Part shown: one piece after another, positions 11,515 through 60,250 of the stretch
How positions within the stretch are numbered: the first letter of the stretch is position 1
How the letters are laid out: each line of letters begins with the position of its first letter
Source of the DNA: a virus
Taxonomy: Duplodnaviria; Caudoviricetes
Virus record (IMG/VR): IMGVR_UViG_3300021256_000056
Coordinates: 1-64,000 of that record
Reading direction: 5' to 3' (one strand)
Length of the DNA: 64,000 bases
The notes under the pieces: generated by a model
Told to the model about the DNA's origin: nothing
Seen by the model: only the letters and a program-made list of their open reading frames with translations
Database searches by the model: none
Made by a program: the position numbers and the translations under genes

Positions 11515-12744
11515 TTAGAAATTATAGAATTGTTTCCTTGCCTCAATAAGAAGGCCATTAATCTTTTCAAGGTCGAGTTCCTTGGGAATGGTCGTGGTCT
11601 TGATAGCCTCGTCCATTTCTTCCTTTTCCTTTGTAACGAATTCCATTAGCTCATCATATTCGTATTTGTGGTTGCGAATATCAAGAAGGAATTCGCGGTC
11701 CGCGTCCCTTGCCACATTGAAACCCTTACCCTGTGCAAGTTCCTTTGCCATACGGACAAGGCGCATACAGTGCATCATGTTCTTGGAGTCGTAGTTCGCA
11801 CCAAGATTTGACTCGTAGCGAACAGGATTACGCTTCTGTTTCCACTCAGCCCACTCTTTATAATCCCTGCAGTGGCTTGCATAGCCATCCTTGTTATAAG
11901 TCATGAAGCAGATAGGCCTCTCACCCTTAGGGATTGAAGAGAGGCGTACGTCGTTGGACTTTGTAATTTCGTCAGGCTCTACGATGCCTTTGTATTTGAA
12001 GAAAGCCCTGTCGGAAATTCTATCTTCAACGCCATCGCCAAGAATGTCATACAATATGAACTTGCTTGCGGAGCCAGAATTCGCTTGGAAAGTTTTATAA
12101 ATTTCAGCTCTTTCATCGTTTCCGACATTCTCAAACTTGAAATACGCTGCGAAGTCATAATAAACCCCGTAGGTGTCCTTCATGTTCGGGATATTCACGA
12201 GTCCGCAATACCTCTGGTCAAGATGATGCTCTTTCAAGAAATCTTTAATCGGCTGTGAGCCCTGATTCTTGAAGGTATAGCAGAAGTCAAGAATATCCTT
12301 GCGCTGAAAATCCTCGGGAATGTGACACTTCTTGTTGTATCCACGAGCCTTTCCGATTTGGGCGACGGCATAACCTCCAAGGCTATTGAAGGCATCCTGA
12401 CAAAGGAAGTCATAGCGATGCTTCCTTATGTACTTAATAATAGGATGCGGCTCTCCGATGATACAGTCATCTGGCATAAAGAGCCCTTCGAGGGCTGTAG
12501 GGTTGTTCTTGATAAGGAGTTCAATCCACCTGCCAAACTCATAGAATACGGTATCGTTCTTCTCATCTGCAACCTGTTCAACATAGTTGGAGCGAAGCCC
12601 AAGAAGCATTTCCTGGGGGCAAATAAATACGCCACCAATATCGATATCGCTGGTTTCTACATTCAAATGGTAAGAGTGTGAACCCCTAAGATATTCATAT
12701 ATAATGAGGTTGTTTTCTCTTAAATAATCAATTGTCCACTTCAT
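11515..12744 (-). CDS. Pol-beta superfamily nucleotidyltransferase (YcgL-like)
   Basis: RGSHSYHLNVETSDIDIGG, KNNPT and YDSKNMMHCMRL motifs. Confidence 0.85.
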   Translation of the reverse strand: MKWTIDYLRENNLIIYEYLRGSHSYHLNVETSDIDIGGVFICPQEMLLGLRSNYVEQVADEKNDTVFYEFGRWIELLIKNNPTALEGLFMPDDCIIGEPHPIIKYIRKHRYDFLCQDAFNSLGGYAVAQIGKARGYNKKCHIPEDFQRKDILDFCYTFKNQGSQPIKDFLKEHHLDQRYCGLVNIPNMKDTYGVYYDFAAYFKFENVGNDERAEIYKTFQANSGSASKFILYDILGDGVEDRISDRAFFKYKGIVEPDEITKSNDVRLSSIPKGERPICFMTYNKDGYASHCRDYKEWAEWKQKRNPVRYESNLGANYDSKNMMHCMRLVRMAKELAQGKGFNVARDADREFLLDIRNHKYEYDELMEFVTKEKEEMDEAIKTTTIPKELDLEKINGLLIEARKQFYNF

Positions 12745-39414: not shown

Positions 39415-40140
39415 CTATTCATCTTTGTCTTTTAGCGTTTTCTTTTTTCGATGAAACCTTTTACTATTCTTATTTAATGAGCCAAAGTTGGGGGTTAGGC
39501 TATGGCAATTAGGGCACAGTAGTTGCAAGTTTTCAATACGGTTATTTGTACAATCACCATCAATATGGTGAACTTCGAGAGGAACATTCCCCGTAAATTC
39601 GTTAACTTCGCCCCAGTGACATTTTTCGCATTTATTGTCGTGAAGGCTCATTAAGTATTCCTTAATAAACACTGGCACCTGTGAAGCTCCCCTCAAAAAA
39701 TTTTCTCCCCCTAGCCACCTTTCTAATTTGCTTATTTTTGGTGGGGTTTCATTTGTATATTCTTCGTATTCTCTTTCTGGAAACTTTGAACGTATGGAAT
39801 CTGAAATTTTTTTCTTGGTTTCAAAACTGCGTGGGCCACGTTTTACGTTATTATATTTCGCGGCACATGACGAGGAACAAAACTTATTGAATCTTTGTTC
39901 AAAACTCAATTTTCTCCCGCATTCTTCACAATACCTGGGATTTTTATCATATGTTTCCCTTGTTTGTTTGTTTTGATAATATTGTCCAGTAATATTCGCT
40001 TTCTGTTTTATCCTATTAATAAAACGCCAAGAAGCGCCATTGGGCCTCCTTCCAAAATAATTTATAACCTCTTTCTCGGAACAACATGCCTCGAACGCAG
40101 ATATTATTTCTTCAATAGAAATCTCTTCGACCTTTTTCAT
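39415..40140 (-). CDS. free-standing HNH homing endonuclease
   Basis: LEVHHIDGDCTNNRIENLQLLCPNCHS. Confidence 0.92.
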   Translation of the reverse strand: MKKVEEISIEEIISAFEACCSEKEVINYFGRRPNGASWRFINRIKQKANITGQYYQNKQTRETYDKNPRYCEECGRKLSFEQRFNKFCSSSCAAKYNNVKRGPRSFETKKKISDSIRSKFPEREYEEYTNETPPKISKLERWLGGENFLRGASQVPVFIKEYLMSLHDNKCEKCHWGEVNEFTGNVPLEVHHIDGDCTNNRIENLQLLCPNCHSLTPNFGSLNKNSKRFHRKKKTLKDKDE

Positions 40141-42101: not shown

Positions 42102-42216
42102 TCGGGGAAGAAGGAATCGAACCTCCGCTAACGGCACCCAAAGCAATTTGACGCTGCTGTTAGTTTTCAATACTGAAAACATTTAAAACGTCGTGCTACC
42201 ACTACACTATTCCCCA
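42102..42216 (-). tRNA. tRNA-Pro(TGG) interrupted by a 44-nt ACAGCAG-helix insert (42145-42188) at position 29/30
   Basis: removing the insert restores ACG|GC-TTTGGGT-GCCGT. Confidence 0.85.
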
Positions 42217-42223
42217 AAATTTG

Positions 42224-42340
42224 TGAGGAGGATGGGACTCGGACCCATGACCCACGGGTTAAAAGCCAAGGTGAGGTTGCTGTTAGTTTTCAGTACAGAA
42301 AACGTTTTATACGTTGCTCTACCAACTGAGCTACCTCCTC
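42224..42340 (-). tRNA. tRNA-Lys(TTT) interrupted by a 44-nt ACAGCAA-helix insert (42268-42311) at position 29/30
   Basis: removing the insert restores ACG|GG-CTTTTAA-CCCGT. Confidence 0.87.
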
Positions 42341-43010: not shown

Positions 43011-43018
43011 ATATTGTG

Positions 43019-43421
43019 TGGAGATGGGCGGACTCGAACCGCCGTTTTTCAAGCTTGCAAACTGCTTTCTACGCGCTTAGTTTTCTTTATGATTCGTTGG
43101 GCACTGGTGGAAAACACACCTGAGTACTCAATATATCATTCTGGAAACGTAGCCAAACCAGACGAATGAAACTGGCCTGCCGCTCTCGATTTGATGATGC
43201 CCTCATATTGTGAATTCAACCAAGACCAAACATTCACGAGGACAATCGTCCCGACACATCCTAGGTGCCGATGGATTAGGCTTATTTGCTTAGCAAATTA
43301 AGCGGCGATTGCATAGGTGTTGTTGCCAACTAATTTTTTTGATATTTGTTTAAAGGCTAAAAATCAAAACGCCTGCGTGCTTACAATCCTCATAGATTGA
43401 AATCAAAACCAAAACATCCCC
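43019..43421 (-). ncRNA. ssrA: tmRNA, tag (A)GNNTYAIAA
   Basis: 5' GGGGATG, 3' GGTTCGAGTCCGCCCATCTCCA with G3:U70; tag ORF GGC AAC AAC ACC TAT GCA ATC GCC GCT TAA. Confidence 0.95.
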
Positions 43422-44371: not shown

Positions 44372-44505
44372 GACAAGGCAGCGTGTATGCATCACCTTCT
44401 GACCTTGTAGAACGGACTTATATACATACCGTAACATTTTCGTAGTATGTAATTTCATCTGTTTTGTGTCTCCGACGAGGCTCGAACTCGTGACCCCCAC
44501 ATTAA

Positions 44506-45341
44506 CCTACCCAATATAGTTGCCTATACCATCTTACGATGTTTGAGTTTGGACCATTTCTTATCCATGCCACTTCGTGGTTTAGGTGGTGGTGTATGGC
44601 CTCTACACATTTATGCAAAAAAGCAATTTAGCCCGACGTTTTCCCAGGGGGATGTTCGTCGAATTAGCCACCATTCACGACAAGGGTTTCCCCTCGTGTG
44701 CTCCTTTCTTAGATTCACGTAAACATGAAATGCATAACCCGCTTTTAGTTTCCCTATGAAGCGGTTTTCCACATTTTTTGCACACGTGTTTGTACGTGTG
44801 GGTGTGTGTGGTTGTTTTAACCCCCTTCATATTTTTCTTTCCAGCGTAACTATCTGTTTGTGAATGGCAATTAGGACACAAAATCACTAGATTGTCGAGT
44901 TCATTATTAAAATGGTCTCCATCTTTATGATGAACTTGCAACGTTATGCTTTTACCATGCCACTCAGAAATTCCGCATTCTGGATTTTCGCACTTATATT
45001 CTTTCAGCCCCAATGAAATTAGTTTTTTCATTAATTCCGAAGATTTTATAAGTTTGTCTTTAACAAAAAAATCCTCTTTGTCTAGACCGTTGTGATTTTT
45101 ATTTCCGATGTTCGATTTTTGTCCAGTGAAATGTGAGGTATCTAGGTCGTATTCTTTCACGTATTTGTAAAACGTTCTATAATTACCACCAACAGGTTTC
45201 CATCCCACAGCACGACAAAAATCAGCAACACTAAAAACACGTTTACATATCTCTATTGCCTCTTCTTTACCAATTACATTTTTTGTCATAATAACACTTT
45301 TATAATAAATAGTGTTTAATTGGTAAAAGTAAGAAGATTTG
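44506..45341 (-). mobile_element. group I intron (IC3-like) with HNH ORF
   Basis: P/Q/R/S-like AATTCGACGAA, GTCGGGCTAA, GTGTAGAGGCC, AAGAAATGGTCC; terminal G after GGTAG. Confidence 0.85.
44675..45289 (-). CDS. intron-encoded HNH homing endonuclease
   Basis: LQVHHKDGDHFNNELDNLVILCPNCHS. Confidence 0.92.
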   Translation of the reverse strand: MTKNVIGKEEAIEICKRVFSVADFCRAVGWKPVGGNYRTFYKYVKEYDLDTSHFTGQKSNIGNKNHNGLDKEDFFVKDKLIKSSELMKKLISLGLKEYKCENPECGISEWHGKSITLQVHHKDGDHFNNELDNLVILCPNCHSQTDSYAGKKNMKGVKTTTHTHTYKHVCKKCGKPLHRETKSGLCISCLRESKKGAHEGKPLS

Positions 45342-45399
45342 AAGTGTGGTGCTCTACCAACTGAGCTACGGAGACTTTCCTTAAATTACCATAAAATTG

Positions 45400-45475: not shown

Positions 45476-45483
45476 ATATTTTG

Positions 45484-45556
45484 CGGAGACGGGCGGAGTC
45501 GAACCACCGACGCGGGGCTCTTCAGGCCCCCGCTCTACCAACTGAGCTACGTCTCC
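45484..45556 (-). tRNA. tRNA-Phe(GAA)
   Basis: GGGGC-CTGAAGA-GCCCC. Confidence 0.93.
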
Positions 45557-45662
45557 AAAAAAAAGGTAAAATCTTCGAAGATTGCTGCAGCGGAAGTCCC
45601 CGAGTCGAACGGTGGTTACCTGGTGCCCCTTGCATACAATACTGCAACAAATTTTACCTTTG

Positions 45663-45738
45663 TGGGTGTCCTGAGACTCGAACTCAGAAACCTCTTGTGT
45701 ATCAGACAAGTGCTCTCAACCAATTGAGCTAGGCACCC
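45663..45738 (-). tRNA. tRNA-Ile(GAT)
   Basis: CTTGT-CTGATAC-ACAAG. Confidence 0.92.
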
Positions 45739-45748
45739 AGAAATTTTG

Positions 45749-46466
45749 TGGGACAGGAGGGACTCGAACCCTCACCCTCCTTAGAGGACTGGTTCCTCGT
45801 ACCACTATGGCTTTCGCCACCAAAACAACTTCGAACTTGCGGGTTGGATTTTCAAGGCTTGTACACCCCCAGGTTGTCTTGTTTGTGGTCTGGACTGTAT
45901 CTTAACCATATTGAAATCTAGCTAGTAAACATCCTTATACTTATAGTCTCGTAGTTTAATGTGGGTCACGCGACCACCCCTAGCTCATATAAGCATGTTA
46001 TTTCAACTTAGGCTCCTCCTGTATCTCGTCTCTACACACTGTCTATTATTCTATATCTGCGGTCCCTTGTTCTCAGGCTATATTCATTACTGAAGTATAG
46101 TCTTGCAGTATAGATTTTAACATTGGCTCGGCATTAGCATATTATTCCTATTGGGGTTTTACAAGTTTCGCTTATAGTTTTATTCCGATATTCACGGTGT
46201 CCCACAAAACCAATATTTGAATAACTTAGCTTTCACCGAATTAGGAAGGTTCTACATAACGGGTTTCCCCGCGTCCACAGGCTACTCTCCCGTTTGGGAT
46301 TGTTTACCTTATCTATCACGCTTCGCAGCGTCCTGTGGTATGCACTCAAGTTAAACGGGCGCCTATCCGCATACAGAGTGTCTCAGTCTGTAATCTCCAA
46401 GTATAGGTTATCAGTATAAGCCCGTTGTTCATAAGACCAGCGCGTCTACCATTCCGCCACTGTCCC
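45749..46466 (-). tRNA. tRNA-Leu(TAG) split by a group I intron
   Basis: exons CTGGT-CTT | AGGA-ACCAG. Confidence 0.9.
45798..46432 (-). mobile_element. group I intron (IC3-like), no recognisable ORF
   Basis: AATTCGGTGAA, AATGCCGAGCC, GTGTAGAGACG, AAGATACAGTCC; ends GGTACG. Confidence 0.9.
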
Positions 46467-47664: not shown

Positions 47665-47665
47665 G

Positions 47666-47748
47666 TGGGCAGGGAGGGATTCGAACCCCCGAAGCCGTGA
47701 GGCAGCAGATTTACAGTCTGCCCGTTTTGACCGCTTACCTACCTACCC
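47666..47748 (-). tRNA. tRNA-Tyr(GTA)
   Basis: GCAGA-CTGTAAA-TCTGC, long variable arm. Confidence 0.92.
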
Positions 47749-48254: not shown

Positions 48255-48332
48255 TGGCGGTGCGTACGGGATTCGAACCCGTGAACTCCACCGTGACAGG
48301 GTGGCATGATAGACCAGCTTCACCAACGCACC
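48255..48332 (-). tRNA. tRNA-Asp(GTC)
   Basis: CCACC-CTGTCAC-GGTGG; CCA encoded. Confidence 0.94.
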
Positions 48333-49232: not shown

Positions 49233-49564
49233 GTTTCTCACCTAAGACTAACGCGCTAATCTGTCATTCGCAATGCACTAGGTGTATAACTTTTTTTATA
49301 CGTGCAGTTCTAACCCCCTTCGTGACCCCTCAGTGCTACTATAGTCGCCCTATATTTGGATTACTGACGATACCCTACACCTACTCATCACGCCATTTAA
49401 CCGTGGCTCTCTCGCATTGTTCCAATCTACGAGAGGCCCCCCCACGGTGAGGCCGTTAGTCGGATTTGACTTGAGCAAGAAGTCTGAATTGAACAGCAAG
49501 TTCCGTCCTTACGTAGCGAACAAGGGACGGACGTCTCCCGAACCTGGGTATCTTGCTAAAAAAT

Positions 49565-49716
49565 GTGTAACCAGAAATCAGAAATGTTTTACTCTACCTA
49601 CTGAGCTACATGGGAAGAATACCGTAACTCCCACGGAGGGACTCGAACCCTCGTCCTTAGTTTTACAGACTTACAAACAATTAATGAACTTGCTGTAAGA
49701 TTTCTTCACGTTACAC
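49565..49716 (-). ncRNA. ACAGCAA-helix RNA enclosing a circularly permuted tRNA-Tyr(GTA)-like module
   Basis: order: helix, ACAGCAA, CTGTAAA loop, T arm, acceptor hairpin, D arm, helix. Confidence 0.8.
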
Positions 49717-49806: not shown

Positions 49807-50123
49807 GAAATTACAGGCACGTAAACGAAATGCCCTCAGACTTCCCAATGGTTTATAGATTAAAGACCTAAAACCATTATGCGGCTCCTTCACACCTACG
49901 AAAAACAGTCTTTGTCAACTACCACGTGTTATAGTATTGTAGGCAAGTTATTCTAACGTCAAACTGCCATGACGATGGTTGCTATTACGCCACACCAAAA
50001 ATAGCGGGTCTGTTTACTAAACAAGAAATTGACCGCAGGTTGGATTTACACCAACTTACTCCCAGTAAAATCCAGGGCTTCAAATTACAAAAGCCTCGCA
50101 CGGTTGATTCCTTGTAGAAATAC

Positions 50124-50235
50124 GGGAAGCGTTTTACGTCCAACGGACGGGGGCGGACTTGAACCGCCGAACCTCTCAAGTTCTGATTTTCAGTCGGAAT
50201 TGTTAAACCTTTGTTGAGATTGCTGTGTGCTTCCC
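50124..50235 (-). ncRNA. ACAGCAA-helix RNA with Phe(GAA) loop, T arm and closed acceptor-like hairpin
   Basis: GGGAAGC-ACACAGCAA...CTGAAAA...GGCGG TTCAAGT CCGCC...CGTCC-GTT-GGACG...GCTTCCC. Confidence 0.78.
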
Positions 50236-50240
50236 TGTTG

Positions 50241-50325
50241 CAGGCGCTGGAGGATTCGAACCCCCGAGGAATTTAATCCTGCTGGTTTTGGAGACCAGTG
50301 CCTTCGACCGCTCGGCCAAGCGTCT
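50241..50325 (-). tRNA. tRNA-Trp(CCA) with long variable arm
   Basis: CTGGT-CTCCAAA-ACCAG; A1:U72, G73; 16-nt variable region. Confidence 0.85.
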
Positions 50326-51028
50326 GTATATATTCCATTAATCCTTTTTTATCGAATGGTAGTCCGTAATGCTTAAACCATTTTCTTATAGCATTATCCG
50401 ACACTCCAAAAGACTTTCCGACTTGTAAAAAACTTCTTTTAACTAAAAAAAGATTAATTAAAGTTTCTTTTGATGGGTGATTTCTTTCCCATGCGCATTC
50501 TCGCGCTTCTATCCAATCTTCTTTGTTTGTGTGTCTTTTCTTTACTATGGTTTTAGTAGTGGATTCGTATTTATTTGAATTTTTTCCTGCATAAGTATCC
50601 GTTTGTGAATGACAATTTGGGCATAATAACATGAGATTTTCAATCCTATTATCGTCATGTATACCATTGATATGGTGGAGTTGTAATGATATCGGTTTAC
50701 CATTCCATTCGCAAATTCCACATTGTGGATTCTCACACTTATTTTCTTTTAAGCCACACTCAATTAGTCTTTTTTTTAGCCGACTTTTGTTTGTGTATAA
50801 ACTATGTTCAACTAGAATGTCATCCATGGGAATTTTTTCTCTGTAGCTTTTTGTCATTCGTTTATAAGAGAATCTTAATTCCAGCCCGAGTTCCTTTGCA
50901 AGCGCCCTTACCTCTTTATAATCTTCCCCGCCAACGTTTTCTATTCCGAGTCTATGACAAAGGTCCAACATATTAACACATTTGTCGTAATTTTCAATTA
51001 ACCTGTCTATCGCGTATTCTCGATTCAT
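50273..51028 (-). CDS. free-standing HNH homing endonuclease with C-terminal HTH
   Basis: LQLHHINGIHDDNRIENLMLLCPNCHS; FGVSDNAIRKW; ORF runs into tRNA-Trp. Confidence 0.92.
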   Translation of the reverse strand: MNREYAIDRLIENYDKCVNMLDLCHRLGIENVGGEDYKEVRALAKELGLELRFSYKRMTKSYREKIPMDDILVEHSLYTNKSRLKKRLIECGLKENKCENPQCGICEWNGKPISLQLHHINGIHDDNRIENLMLLCPNCHSQTDTYAGKNSNKYESTTKTIVKKRHTNKEDWIEARECAWERNHPSKETLINLFLVKRSFLQVGKSFGVSDNAIRKWFKHYGLPFDKKGLMEYIQTLGRAVEGTGLQNQQD

Positions 51029-54137: not shown

Positions 54138-54154
54138 GTTTTTCGTAAATTTTG

Positions 54155-54226
54155 TGCTCCATACAGGAATCGAACCCGTCTAAGAACGTTTTAGGGACGC
54201 CCGCTCGGCCACTGAGCCAATGGAGC
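54155..54226 (-). tRNA. amber suppressor-like tRNA (CTA)
   Basis: GCTCCAT/ATGGAGC-A; GGCGT-CCCTAAA-ACGTT; C33. Confidence 0.75.
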
Positions 54227-58608: not shown

Positions 58609-58674
58609 TTATTATAAATAGGCAAATAAAAAGAAAAACCACCATTTACACTTGTGTGTATTTGGTGGTTTTTG

Positions 58675-59289
58675 TGGCCCAGGCGGGACTCGAACCCGCA
58701 CGGCCCTTGCGGGCCAGCAGATTTTCTTACCACTATAGCTTTCACTACCTAAACAACTTCGAACAATCGGGTTGGATTTTCAAGGCTTTATACCCCCAGG
58801 TTGTATAGTTTGTGGTCTGGACTGTATCTTAACCATATTGAAATCTTGCAAGTGTCATACGCATAGTAAACTATAAACATTATAGGTGGAGTCTCTCAGG
58901 TTCCGCTCTTCCTATAAGAGGCTATAGTCTGTTGCCGTAATTCTATTTCAACTTAGGCTCCTCCTGTATCTCGTCTCTACACACATACGTTGCGGGGATG
59001 TCCCGAAAACAAGGCTACTTGCTGCCCTCTGCTACCTTATTAGGGTAGATAGCGTTGCAATTACTTGTTCGTACTTGGCTCGGTATTACCAACAGCGTTA
59101 ATTTTCTCCACTCCATAGAATTCAACTCATTGGCAGTAATCTTCCAATGCTTCACATCTACTTCAACGCTTCCTTGAATTTTAACCTGCTAAGGTTTCAC
59201 CGAATTAGGGAGGTTCTACATCTCTTGTTTCCAAGAGCGCACTCAAATTTTCATTAAGTCTGCCGCGTATACCATTCCGCCACTAGGCC
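58675..59289 (-). tRNA. tRNA-Leu(TAA) split by a group I intron
   Basis: exons GCAGA-CTT | AAAA-TCTGC. Confidence 0.92.
58726..59255 (-). mobile_element. group I intron (IC3-like), no recognisable ORF
   Basis: same P/Q/R/S core as 45798-46432; U34/A35 site as in cyanobacterial and plastid trnL(UAA). Confidence 0.9.
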
Positions 59290-59512
59290 ATAATTTAGTC
59301 TCATATTTAGAGGTATGGTAATTAGCTTTACGACCTGCGTTCATACTCGGTGGGGCGACCATGCCCACCTTTCTTACTGGCGACCCGCATCATTTCATCG
59401 GAGGTCAACATTGTGAATCAGCATTACCTGGTCTTCAACATTAGTATCTTCTTTCCGTCATTCGGAATCTTTTGCCAATCTCTAAACGTTTATTTTCAAA
59501 GAACTTCTTTTG

Positions 59513-60250
59513 TGGTCCCTGTAGGACTTGAACCTACGACCATCTGATTCGTACCACCATAGCTTTTACTACCAAAATTGATTACATGAACAAATCCTAA
59601 GTACCGTATCAGCCTTAAGCCGATTATGCCTACATTATGACCGTCCTACTATAACGGTGTAATCAGTCCTAACATTGCTTCATCCTATTAGGGCACTTTA
59701 ATTTTGTTTGTGGTCTGGACTGTCTCTTAACCATATTGAAATCTTGCAAGTAAGTATTGATGTTTCGAGCATCTACCTCGCTCTTATCGAGCGGATATTC
59801 CATTACCTTCGGAAAATACAATTTCAACTTAGGCTCCTCCTGTATCTCGTCTCTACACACTGTCTAAACAAATAATTGAAATGTAGCTTAGATGTTCTAT
59901 TCTGTAATTCAAACATCAACGACTTTTCATTACATTTCCAACTAACATCGTACCTACAGACGCGATGAATTCATTTGTTTTAACATTGGCTCGGTATTAG
60001 CATATTTGGACTGTCTTCTTACACATAGATTCTAAACGACTGCTATCATTACTGAAATTCAGTTAACTATGTACTACTGTTGACAATACACCAACTAATT
60101 TAGACGATTATCCGATATATTCCTGTACATCCAAACTATAGCTTTTACCGAATTAGGGAGGTTCTACATCCAAGGTTTCCCTTGGTGCACACAATTTCTT
60201 TTCAAAGAACTAATGAGTCAGGTGCTCTAACCAAACTGAGCTAAGGGACC
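59513..60250 (-). tRNA. tRNA-Ile2/Met(CAT) split by a group I intron
   Basis: exons CCTGA-CTCAT | AA-TCAGA. Confidence 0.87.
59550..60212 (-). mobile_element. group I intron (IC3-like) at position 36/37
   Basis: shared core AAGAGACAGTCCAGACCACAAAC and GTGTAGAGACGAGATACAGG; ends GGTACG. Confidence 0.88.

What the first reader, a model, noticed from the sequence alone, without database searches (positions are those of the whole stretch)
49565..49716. Circularly permuted tRNA-Tyr-like gene
Seen: the order is anticodon arm (CTGTAAA), T arm, acceptor 3' strand CGTGGGA, linker, acceptor 5' strand TCCCATG, D arm. All of it is enclosed by the ACAGCAA helix and an outer GTGTAAC/GTTACAC stem. Known: permuted tRNA genes occur in algae and Thermofilum; YrlA has the T-acceptor-D order but no anticodon loop. 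Inference: a Y-RNA-like tRNA mimic, or a precursor that matures through a circle.
Basis: partly seen in the sequence, partly recalled or inferred. Interest (0 to 1): 0.82.

Follow-up and report, generated by a model that had tools for sequence, protein, structure and literature searches.

The report
Rotated tRNA look-alike with protein handle
This 152-base stretch of a giant phage encodes a small RNA shaped like a tyrosine tRNA written in rotated order and closed by a conserved "handle"; in other phages this handle lies next to a Ro60-like ring-protein gene, so it is most likely a tRNA-mimicking partner RNA, not a working tRNA.

Summary
On the minus strand, 49565-49716 reads: outer stem, 7-bp clamp, UU-ACAGCAA, anticodon arm (CUGUAAA), T arm, a 7-bp acceptor stem closed by a 13-nt loop, D arm, A-rich joiner, clamp, outer stem. 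Rotated in silico, ARAGORN calls it tRNA-Tyr(GTA).

It is not a one-off. A covariance model built from 56 look-alikes in other phage contigs, without this one, finds it at 77 bits (E 4e-13), and the helices covary strongly.

The partner is not a TROVE Ro60. It is a DUF2828 protein, present in 27 of 29 phage records that carry such RNAs, and its predicted fold best matches Ro60. Starting from 80 DUF2828 genes, 203 handles lie on the gene's strand, against 17 on the opposite strand and 17 in each of two controls that counted both strands.

The handle (stem, UUACAGCAA, 3' UG) matches the signature of Dictyostelium Class I RNAs, which were reported as unique to those amoebae.

A working permuted tRNA is unlikely. 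The body lacks bacterial Tyr identity features, many relatives have sealed acceptor ends or no anticodon loop, and no splicing enzyme or ligase was found.

Caveats: this 195-kb record (about 53% complete) holds no DUF2828 gene, and expression is untested. Earlier agents of this scan noted the same family on other DNA.

The parts
49710..49716 (-). Outer stem, 5' strand GUGUAAC. This extension is specific to this copy.
   Evidence: Pairs 7 of 7 with 49565-49571 in the MFE folds. It lies 14 nt after the 3' end of tRNA-Asn. Most family members lack such an extension.
49699..49705 (-). Clamp helix of the handle, 5' strand AGAAAUC, inside AAGAAAUC.
   Evidence: Complementary 7 of 7 to 49573-49579. 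The matching helix covaries in 56 relatives: all 7 pairs show changes on both sides.
49690..49698 (-). UU-ACAGCAA, the conserved single-stranded motif of the handle.
   Evidence: Eleven handle-type copies of GAAAnCnnACAGCA lie on this strand within 38-56 kb, against only 6 looser matches on both strands of the rest of the 195-kb record. It is no more complementary to its payload than shuffles are (62 against 57.7 +/- 5.2). It is the same word as in the Dictyostelium Class I RNA pattern GTTGRCCTTACAGCAA.
49657..49673 (-). Anticodon-like arm UAAGU / CUGUAAA / ACUAA, with GUA at 49664-49666.
   Evidence: Read from the sequence and accepted by ARAGORN after rotation. The 7-nt loop is identical to that of the phage's real tRNA-Tyr. 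The stem has one A.A mismatch and is not in the MFE fold.
49636..49656 (-). Variable region GGAC plus T arm GAGGG-UUCGAGU-CCCUC.
   Evidence: The T helix is 99% paired across the family.
49609..49635 (-). Acceptor stem closed into a hairpin: CGUGGGA, 13-nt loop GUUACGGUAUUCU, UCCCAUG.
   Evidence: 7 of 7 pairs. The family helix is 97.5% paired, and all 5 aligned pairs show changes on both sides.
49591..49608 (-). U8 A9 plus D arm GCUC-AGUAGGUA-GAGU, with G18 G19 present.
   Evidence: The D helix is 100% paired in the family.
49580..49590 (-). A-rich joiner AAAACAUUUCU between the D arm and the clamp.
   Evidence: An A-rich run before the 3' clamp strand is a family feature. AAACA could also pair with UGUUU at 49675-49679 (read from the sequence; inference only).
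49573..49579 (-). Clamp helix, 3' strand GAUUUCU, followed by G.
   Evidence: A G follows the clamp in about 70% of the 168-172 handles found beside DUF2828 genes.
49565..49571 (-). Outer stem, 3' strand GUUACAC.
49493..49503 (-). GAACUUGCUGU, a perfect 11-nt complement of ACAGCAAGUUC (49686-49696). It may be an alternative long-range pairing. Whether it belongs to the element is uncertain.
   Evidence: (centroid fold). It is the only antisense copy of the motif in the tRNA array and remains unexplained.

Best explanation
The locus is a gene for a non-decoding small RNA of about 135-150 nt, transcribed from the minus strand as part of the phage's tRNA array. A conserved handle joins the RNA's two ends. 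The handle is a 7-bp clamp helix, then UU-ACAGCAA on the 5' side, and an A-rich run before the 3' clamp strand, which is followed by G. The handle carries as cargo a complete L-shaped tRNA body. In that body the acceptor end is sealed by a loop and the anticodon loop copies that of tRNA-Tyr. By analogy with Ro60 and its Y RNAs (YrlA), the handle is inferred to be the docking site for a Ro60-like ring protein of the DUF2828 family. The tRNA-shaped cargo would then bring tRNA-binding factors to that protein, or hold them away from real tRNAs. Shown here: the anatomy, membership in a large covarying family, the genomic linkage of that family to DUF2828 genes, and the Ro60-like predicted fold of those proteins. 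Inferred: physical binding, the RNA's ends, and its role in infection.
For: Anatomy.
Family within this phage: 8 free-standing copies and 3 copies built into tRNAs, all on one strand.
Family elsewhere: at least 72 non-redundant rotated tRNA look-alikes in other viral contigs.
Covariation on a plain MAFFT alignment: 94.4% of cells paired against 33-42% for slid controls, score 0.78 against 0.10-0.15. This includes a helix I did not select for.
Membership: a model built without the candidate scores it at 77.0 bits, E 3.8e-13.
Partner gene: TROVE in 0 of 29 records, DUF2828 in 27 of 29, and in 19 of 19 records that are at least 90% complete.
Fold: AlphaFold model pLDDT 86; the top 11 listed Foldseek matches are all full-length Ro60/Rsr/phage Ro60, E 1.6e-7. 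The sequence profile also hits Ro60 first.
Reverse test from 80 DUF2828 loci: 203 handles on the gene's strand against 17 opposite, 17 in shuffles and 17 in reversed sequence.
The rotated-tRNA model hits 36 times in those loci, all on the gene's strand, 19 of them within about 1.1 kb upstream of the gene.
Against decoding: short variable arm and G73, where the phage's true tRNA-Tyr has a long variable arm and A73. Of 14 relatives with 4-nt acceptor loops, 7 have UUCG or GNRA. About a third of relatives lack a well-formed anticodon hairpin.
Against: No DUF2828, DUF7788 or TROVE gene lies in the 195 kb held for this phage. That record is only about 53% complete, so the partner is missing from what I could see.
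No binding data exist for any member of the family.
This copy is atypical. Its anticodon arm is wholly in cis, so the break is at 26/27, whereas most relatives break at 28-30.
Its anticodon stem is weak, and RNAfold prefers a hairpin that buries ACAGCAA.
In mid-sized phages the DUF2828 gene sits among terminase, portal and capsid genes, not among RNA-repair genes, so the cellular role is open.
Confidence: 0.6

Rival explanations
1. It is a true circularly permuted tRNA-Tyr gene. The handle is cut off, the ends are ligated into a circle, and RNase P plus 3' processing open the acceptor loop to release a working tRNA, as in Cyanidioschyzon.
For: The 3' half precedes the 5' half, and rotation gives a cloverleaf that ARAGORN accepts. 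The same handle sits as an insert in three otherwise normal tRNAs of this array, so a single excision mechanism could in principle serve both forms. 6 of 72 relatives carry N73-CCA in the acceptor loop, against about 1 expected.
Against: No bulge-helix-bulge motif. No splicing endonuclease, RtcB or Rnl ligase in the record. The body lacks bacterial Tyr identity features, namely the long variable arm and A73. The phage already has tRNA-Tyr(GTA) at 47665-47748. Many relatives have tetraloop-sealed acceptor stems or no anticodon loop, and the commonest family members are about 60-nt RNAs with no tRNA body. The insert-bearing tRNAs duplicate anticodons already present in the array.
Confidence: 0.05
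2. It is a two-piece tRNA mimic. After transcription, RNase P cuts in the 13-nt acceptor loop and the new 3' end is trimmed and given CCA, as shown for Mycobacterium smegmatis YrlA. The handle then holds together two RNA pieces with a free acceptor end. This is compatible with the main explanation.
For: The RNA has a full 7-bp acceptor stem stacked on a normal T arm and a 13-nt single-stranded loop with U at -1. M. smegmatis YrlA, which also has a 7-bp acceptor stem, is cut by RNase P in vitro and is cleaved and CCA-tailed in vivo (PMC4201824). N73-CCA is enriched in family loops.
Against: Half of the 4-nt loops in relatives are stable UUCG or GNRA tetraloops, which argues that the family is selected for a closed end. 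There are no end-mapping data.
Confidence: 0.15
3. It is a decoy or bait for enzymes that recognise anticodon loops, such as host anticodon nucleases or tRNA-modifying enzymes. It would act with or without the Ro60-like protein.
For: The handle RNAs of this phage display canonical CU-NNN-AA loops: Tyr CUGUAAA, Phe CUGAAAA, Ile CUGAUAA, Lys CUUUUAA. Several of the phage's own tRNAs deviate at positions 37/38: Phe CUGAAGA, Ile CUGAUAC, Asp CUGUCAC. The phage encodes an RlaP nucleotidyltransferase, a family linked to RNA repair (PMC7824862).
Against: This rests on a handful of loops. The Tyr loop is the same in the mimic and in the phage tRNA. A third of the rotated relatives show no anticodon loop at all. 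No nuclease or target is identified.
Confidence: 0.15
4. It is a decayed by-product of recombination between tRNA genes, with no function.
For: The array is full of HNH endonuclease genes and introns that promote rearrangement. The anticodon stem has a mismatch. No close ortholog was found.
Against: All other helices are intact. The handle is complete. A model trained on unrelated phages scores it at 77 bits. The architecture recurs with compensatory changes in more than 70 contigs.
Confidence: 0.03

Closest known systems
YrlA, the tRNA-like Y RNA of bacteria and mycobacteriophages bound by Rsr/Ro60 (Rfam RF02553; Chen et al. 2014, PMC4201824)
   Same: T arm, closed acceptor-like stem and D arm in that gene order. 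The 5' and 3' ends pair into a stem that leads to the protein site. The gene is linked to a Ro60-fold protein with a vWA domain. The RNA is a tRNA mimic, not a decoder.
   Different: It scores 31.4 bits against a 69-bit cut-off. The handle is a short clamp plus single-stranded ACAGCAA, not the bulged Ro-binding helix. The partner family is DUF2828/DUF7788, not TROVE. A full anticodon arm is present, which YrlA lacks.
Class I RNAs of dictyostelid social amoebae (Aspegren 2004; Kjellin et al. 2021, PMC7919456; search pattern in PMC5054030)
   Same: A 6-7 bp terminal stem conserved in structure but not in sequence. It is followed by (C)UUACAGCAA, which is unstructured. Then comes a variable body, the 3' stem strand, and UG(U). 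The published pattern is GTTGRCCTTACAGCAA ... GTCAACTG. The candidate reads AAGAAAUC-UU-ACAGCAA ... GAUUUCUG.
   Different: Class I RNAs are about 60 nt with no tRNA body, are eukaryotic, and were reported as absent outside Dictyostelia. Their only known direct binder is the RRM protein Rnp1A. Whether the resemblance reflects common descent or convergence is untested.
Permuted tRNA genes of Cyanidioschyzon merolae and other algae, and of Thermofilum (from my own knowledge)
   Same: The 3' half is encoded upstream of the 5' half, and the acceptor strands are joined by a short linker.
   Different: Those genes mature through a bulge-helix-bulge motif, a splicing endonuclease and a ligase into working tRNAs. 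None of these was found here, and the family includes members that cannot decode.
Thermus phage phiLo Ro60 with phage-encoded Yrl1/Yrl2 (PMC12135203)
   Same: A phage-encoded Ro60-fold ring protein with small partner RNAs encoded beside its gene. Its structure (9l5y, 9kop) is among the top fold matches of the DUF2828 model.
   Different: phiLo Ro60 is a TROVE protein. Its RNAs were picked by a CGAA motif and are not described as tRNA-shaped.

Membership tests
Handle-clamped rotated tRNA look-alikes of phages (an undescribed family, defined here by model R1) | Full-length match to a covariance model built from 56 members in other contigs, with the candidate left out | tested here: met
   77.0 bits, E 3.8e-13, model positions 1-129 of 129, at 49570-49708 on the minus strand.
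Handle-clamped rotated tRNA look-alikes of phages (an undescribed family, defined here by model R1) | A 7-bp clamp, 1-3 nt, ACAGCAA on the 5' side; an A-rich run, the clamp 3' strand and then G on the 3' side | tested here: met
   AGAAAUC-UU-ACAGCAA ... AAAAC AUUUCU-GAUUUCU-G.
Handle-clamped rotated tRNA look-alikes of phages (an undescribed family, defined here by model R1) | A DUF2828 (Ro60-like) gene in the same genome | tested here: not met
   Absent from the 195-kb record by Pfam, tblastn and a family HMM. The record is estimated to be 53% complete, so absence from the phage is not shown. Present in 27 of 29 other carrier records.
Handle-clamped rotated tRNA look-alikes of phages (an undescribed family, defined here by model R1) | Handle inserted in the 5' strand of the anticodon stem, so that 2-3 proximal pairs form in trans | tested here: not met
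   Here all five stem positions are in cis and the break is at 26/27. Most relatives break at 28/29 or 29/30.
YrlA (Rfam RF02553) | Score at or above Rfam's gathering cut-off of 69 bits | tested here: not met
   31.4 bits, E 4.9e-5 in a 431-base search.
YrlA (Rfam RF02553) | Encoded beside an rsr gene with a TROVE domain | tested here: not met
   No TROVE in this record or in 29 related carrier records.
YrlA (Rfam RF02553) | tRNA-like module in the order T arm, acceptor-like stem, D arm, closed by a terminal stem | tested here: met
Functional bacterial-type tRNA-Tyr | Contiguous cloverleaf with a free acceptor end | tested here: not met
   The gene order is rotated and the acceptor stem is closed by a 13-nt loop. 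ARAGORN and the Rfam tRNA model do not call it.
Functional bacterial-type tRNA-Tyr | Long variable arm and A73 (bacterial TyrRS identity elements; established knowledge) | tested here: not met
   The variable region is GGAC (4 nt) and position 73 is G. The phage's own tRNA-Tyr has the long arm and A73.
Permuted tRNA genes that mature through a circle (Cyanidioschyzon type) | 3' half upstream of the 5' half | tested here: met
Permuted tRNA genes that mature through a circle (Cyanidioschyzon type) | Splicing endonuclease and RNA ligase available | tested here: not met
   PF01974, RtcB, RNA_ligase and RNA_lig_T4_1 are all absent from the record. The record is incomplete and host enzymes were not examined.
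Permuted tRNA genes that mature through a circle (Cyanidioschyzon type) | Circular intermediate and a mature linear tRNA | not testable with these tools
   Needs RNA from infected cells.
Dictyostelium Class I RNAs | Terminal 6-bp stem, adjacent CCUUACAGCAA-type motif, 3' end CUGU | tested here: met
   The candidate reads AAG-AAAUC-UU-ACAGCAA ... GAUUU-CUG-G. The comparison is by eye, not by their model.
Dictyostelium Class I RNAs | About 60 nt, DUSE promoter, dictyostelid genome | tested here: not met
   The candidate is about 135-150 nt with a tRNA body and lies in a phage contig.

The most novel reading that the evidence does not exclude
Phages build a modular ribonucleoprotein kit. One protein handle (stem plus UUACAGCAA, the same signature as the unexplained Class I RNAs of social amoebae) docks a Ro60-like ring protein. 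Its interchangeable cargo ranges from bare anticodon hairpins to whole tRNA bodies. The cargo presents host-type anticodon loops as bait or decoy for tRNA-targeting defence nucleases or tRNA-modifying enzymes. If so, the candidate is the tyrosine-loop member of an anti-defence tRNA-mimic set, and the partner of the amoebal Class I RNAs would be predicted to be a DUF2828-type protein.
Probability: 0.15. Interest if true: 0.88.

Novelty: new variant of a known kind. Interest (0 to 1): 0.66.

Why it matters
Ro60 with its Y RNAs is a classic but poorly understood RNA-surveillance particle, and bacterial Y RNAs are already known to mimic tRNA. This locus belongs to a second version that I did not find described in the literature. 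That version has a different Ro60-like protein family (DUF2828), a different RNA handle, and cargo that here is a complete tRNA shape including an anticodon arm. The family is common in large phages of gut and rumen samples, sits inside tRNA arrays, and is missed or mis-called by tRNA finders, so it affects how phage tRNA genes, tRNA introns and permuted tRNAs are counted. The handle's match to the Dictyostelium Class I RNA signature, reported as unique to those amoebae, yields a testable idea about what those RNAs bind.

Tried and rejected
1. Canonical Ro60: the TROVE Pfam model finds nothing in this record or in 29 carrier records. That rejects membership in the YrlA/Rsr system proper.
2. 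Partner gene in this phage: searches with DUF2828, DUF7788, tblastn with 17 homologues and a family HMM at maximum sensitivity all came back empty. A region at 127 kb is homologous to a neighbour of the gene in a related phage, but it holds replication genes. The 514-aa ORF inside the array is SprT-like.
3. Splicing or ligation enzymes: RtcB, Rnl1/Rnl2-type ligases and tRNA splicing endonuclease are absent.
4. Close orthologs of this copy: none found among the fetched loci, through the neighbouring SprT-like protein, or with an exact 21-mer. One metagenome hit (L217) is a distant rotated Tyr-loop relative with GCAGCAA and a poor clamp.
5. Does ACAGCAA pair with its payload? It is no more complementary than shuffles are, so the local hairpin in this copy's MFE fold is probably not a family feature.
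6. The 332-nt spacer downstream (49233-49564): no unusual stability (z = -0.3), no repeats, no Rfam match.
8. Rfam holds no family that matches the handle RNAs.
9. Literature searches for DUF2828, ACAGCAA with phage, permuted tRNA with phage, and Ro60 with phage and tRNA-like found no description of this family.

Full report
SETTING. The window is the first 64 kb of a 195-kb IMG/VR viral contig that CheckV rates as about 53% complete. Almost all genes run on the minus strand. Between 38 and 57 kb lies an array of 35 tRNA genes plus a tmRNA gene, interspersed with HNH endonuclease genes. This is therefore a large phage, and the finding has to be read on the minus strand.

THE OBSERVATION. On the minus strand, 49716-49565 reads in this order:
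- outer stem strand GUGUAAC
- GUGA
- clamp AGAAAUC
- UU-ACAGCAA
- a 16-nt spacer
- anticodon arm UAAGU/CUGUAAA/ACUAA
- variable region GGAC
- T arm GAGGG-UUCGAGU-CCCUC
- acceptor 3' strand CGUGGGA
- a 13-nt loop
- acceptor 5' strand UCCCAUG
- UA
- D arm GCUC-AGUAGGUA-GAGU
- AAAACAUUUCU
- clamp GAUUUCU
- G
- outer stem strand GUUACAC

RNAfold forms the outer stem, clamp, T, acceptor and D helices on its own (z = -2.3). The anticodon stem has one A.A mismatch and loses in the MFE fold to a hairpin that pairs CUUACAGCAA with UUGUUUGUAAG. Joining the 5' half to the 3' half in silico gives a 72-nt cloverleaf that ARAGORN calls tRNA-Tyr(gta). The elbow nucleotides are all present: U8, A14, G18 G19, U54 U55 C56, and G15 with C48. 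As encoded, tRNA finders miss the locus, and Rfam YrlA matches it full length at only 31.4 bits against a 69-bit cut-off.

IT IS ONE OF A FAMILY.
Within this phage: the word GAAAnCnnACAGCA occurs in 11 handle-type copies on the minus strand inside the array, against only 6 looser matches on both strands of the remaining 177 kb. Each copy has a 7-8-bp clamp whose partner lies downstream of a variable payload. The payloads range from an anticodon hairpin of about 35 nt to tRNA-like bodies. In three Rfam-detected tRNAs that ARAGORN missed, the same module sits as a 44-51-nt insert in the anticodon stem, with the clamp closed by a loop. The candidate is the circular permutation of that build: clamp open, acceptor closed.

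72 non-redundant instances have both a closed acceptor stem (at least 6 of 7 pairs) and a clamp (at least 6 of 7 pairs), with quite different sequences.

Covariation: on a plain MAFFT alignment of 56 of these instances, my named structure is 94.4% paired, against 33-42% when partners are slid by 1-3 columns. The covariation score is 0.78 against 0.10-0.15, and 22 of 25 pairs show changes on both sides. The clamp and acceptor helices were used to select the set, so their figures are inflated. The trans helix between the end of the 5' half and the anticodon 3' strand was not selected, yet it is 92% paired with 29 double changes per pair.

Membership: a covariance model built from these 56 sequences, without the candidate, finds the candidate at 49570-49708 with 77.0 bits and E 3.8e-13. 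That settles membership.

THE PARTNER PROTEIN. Notes from earlier agents of this scan claimed a link to a Ro60-like DUF2828 protein. I tested that claim myself.
- TROVE, the domain of true Ro60/Rsr, is absent from 29 of 29 large carrier records.
- DUF2828 is present in 27 of 29, and in 19 of 19 records that are at least 90% complete. In about a dozen records it lies within the same 10-kb locus as the rotated tRNA look-alike.
- A profile of 17 of these proteins hits Ro60 first in the PDB, through the vWA part.
- An AlphaFold model (pLDDT 86, pTM 0.86) has Ro60, Rsr and Thermus phage Ro60 as all 11 of its top listed Foldseek matches, aligned over its full length (E 1.6e-7, TM 0.46-0.60).
- In the reverse direction, I started from 80 DUF2828 loci that were found without any RNA criterion. 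A mechanical handle finder gives 203 handles on the gene's strand, against 17 on the opposite strand. Shuffled and reversed sequence, each counted on both strands, give 17 apiece. 76 of the 80 loci have at least one handle.
- The rotated-tRNA model hits 36 times in those loci at E no higher than 1e-5. All 36 are on the gene's strand, and 19 lie within about 1.1 kb upstream of the gene. YrlA is likewise encoded next to rsr.

THE WEAK POINT FOR THIS LOCUS. The 195 kb held for this phage contain no DUF2828, DUF7788 or TROVE gene by Pfam, by tblastn or by a family HMM. The phage shares about 50% identical proteins with 300-400-kb rumen phages that do carry the gene 14-34 kb from their rotated tRNA look-alikes. 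About half of this genome is missing. The gene may lie in the missing half, but that is not shown.

WHY NOT A WORKING PERMUTED tRNA.
- Bacterial tRNA-Tyr has a long variable arm and A73, and the phage's real tRNA-Tyr (47665-47748) has both. The candidate has a 4-nt variable region and G73 and shares only the 7-nt loop.
- The candidate is no more than 69% identical to any tRNA of the array.
- Of 14 relatives whose acceptor loop is 4 nt long, 7 have UUCG or GNRA. That points to selection for a sealed end.
- About a third of relatives lack a well-formed anticodon hairpin, and in some of them the stem leads straight into the handle.
- The commonest family members beside DUF2828 genes have payloads of only 30-60 nt.
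- The three insert-bearing tRNAs duplicate anticodons already served by normal tRNAs.
- No splicing endonuclease, RtcB or Rnl-type ligase is in the record.

One possibility stays open. M. smegmatis YrlA, which also has a 7-bp acceptor stem, is cut by RNase P and given CCA (PMC4201824). This copy has a 13-nt loop, and N73-CCA is enriched in family loops (6 of 72 against about 1 expected). It could therefore be opened into two pieces held together by the handle.

A LINK TO A KNOWN BUT UNEXPLAINED RNA CLASS. Dictyostelium Class I RNAs are about 60 nt long. They have a 6-bp terminal stem conserved in structure but not in sequence, an adjacent unstructured 11-nt motif, a variable body, and conserved ends AAG... 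and ...CUGU. They were reported as absent outside Dictyostelia (PMC7919456). The published search pattern is GTTGRCCTTACAGCAA, then 0-120 nt, then GTCAACTG (PMC5054030). The candidate reads AAGAAAUC-UU-ACAGCAA ... GAUUUCUG, and the consensus of the rotated set is AAGGAnnC-nU-ACAGCAA ... GnAUCCUGU. The signature is the same. Whether this reflects common descent was not tested.

MECHANISM, AND WHAT IS SHOWN.
Shown: the anatomy, the family, the covariation, the gene linkage and the Ro60-like predicted fold.
Inferred by analogy with Ro60/Y RNA and YrlA: the clamp and ACAGCAA dock the ring protein, and the tRNA-shaped cargo recruits or sequesters tRNA-binding factors.
A more specific idea: the cargo displays host-type anticodon loops as bait. 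Its support is thin. The handle RNAs here show canonical CU-NNN-AA loops, while several of the phage's own tRNAs deviate at positions 37/38. The phage also encodes an RlaP nucleotidyltransferase, a family linked to RNA repair (PMC7824862). Against a pure repair role, the DUF2828 gene in mid-sized phages sits among terminase, portal and capsid genes.

NOVELTY. I found no paper on this handle, on DUF2828 as an RNA-binding protein, or on permuted tRNA-like genes in phages. Rfam has no matching family. Phage Ro60 proteins with partner RNAs are known: the jumbo-phage review and phiLo. The kind is therefore known and this is a new variant of it. Earlier agents of this scan found the same family on many other genomes.

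Noticed in passing
window 49493-49503 (minus strand), with 49686-49696: GAACUUGCUGU, 190 nt downstream, is a perfect 11-nt complement of ACAGCAAGUUC in the handle. It is the only antisense copy of the motif in the tRNA array. The centroid fold of the longer region uses this pairing. It could be an alternative structure that hides the motif, or a DNA-level inverted repeat.
   Followed up: partly
window 42171-42295 (minus strand): The best window hit of the rotated-tRNA model (77.8 bits) spans the junction of two tandem insert-bearing tRNAs. It runs from the handle of the first, through its 3' half and a 7-nt spacer, into the 5' half and handle of the second. The tandem pair therefore also reads as a rotated unit.
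   Followed up: partly
window 50121-50238 (minus strand): A neighbouring handle RNA carries a Phe-type anticodon arm (CUGAAAA), a T arm and a 5-bp mini acceptor hairpin, but no D arm. It is an intermediate build between the minimal and the full tRNA-shaped members.
   Followed up: partly
window 45483-45556, 45662-45738, 48255-48332 compared with 50226, 54286 and 55616: The phage's own tRNA-Phe, tRNA-Ile and tRNA-Asp have unusual loop positions 37/38 (CUGAAGA, CUGAUAC, CUGUCAC). The handle RNAs display the canonical CUGAAAA and CUGAUAA.
   Followed up: partly
window 11515-12744 (minus strand): A 409-aa ORF with an RlaP domain (RNA-ligase-associated Pol-beta nucleotidyltransferase, E 1.5e-12). 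No RNA ligase was found in the 195-kb record.
   Followed up: partly
window 54154-54226 and 43016-43421 (minus strand): A suppressor-type tRNA with anticodon CUA (ARAGORN labels it Pyl) and a phage-encoded tmRNA with tag GNNTYAIAA. These hint at stop-codon recoding and ribosome rescue.
   Followed up: no
window 50273-51028, 44675-45289, 39415-40140 (minus strand): Three HNH endonuclease ORFs lie among the tRNA genes. With its intron option on, ARAGORN also proposes several tRNAs with 530-836-nt inserts (44466-45375, 45748-46466, 58674-59289, 59512-60250).
   Followed up: no
L217 886-1014 (minus strand), metagenome contig JGI24702J35022_10024787: A rotated tRNA look-alike with a perfect Tyr-type anticodon arm in cis (UUCGA-CUGUAAA-UCGAA). 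It scores 66.6 bits with the family model, but has GCAGCAA in place of ACAGCAA and a poorly paired clamp.
   Followed up: partly
L137-L216 (80 DUF2828 loci): In these mostly 10-200-kb phage contigs the Ro60-like gene lies among terminase, portal, Mu-F-like and major capsid genes. In 11 loci it lies near a Band_7/SPFH protein. It does not lie beside RNA-repair enzymes.
   Followed up: partly
window 49233-49564 (minus strand): A 332-nt non-coding spacer between the candidate and tRNA-Val, with GC-rich hairpins. It shows no excess stability (z = -0.3), no repeats in the genome and no Rfam match.
   Followed up: yes
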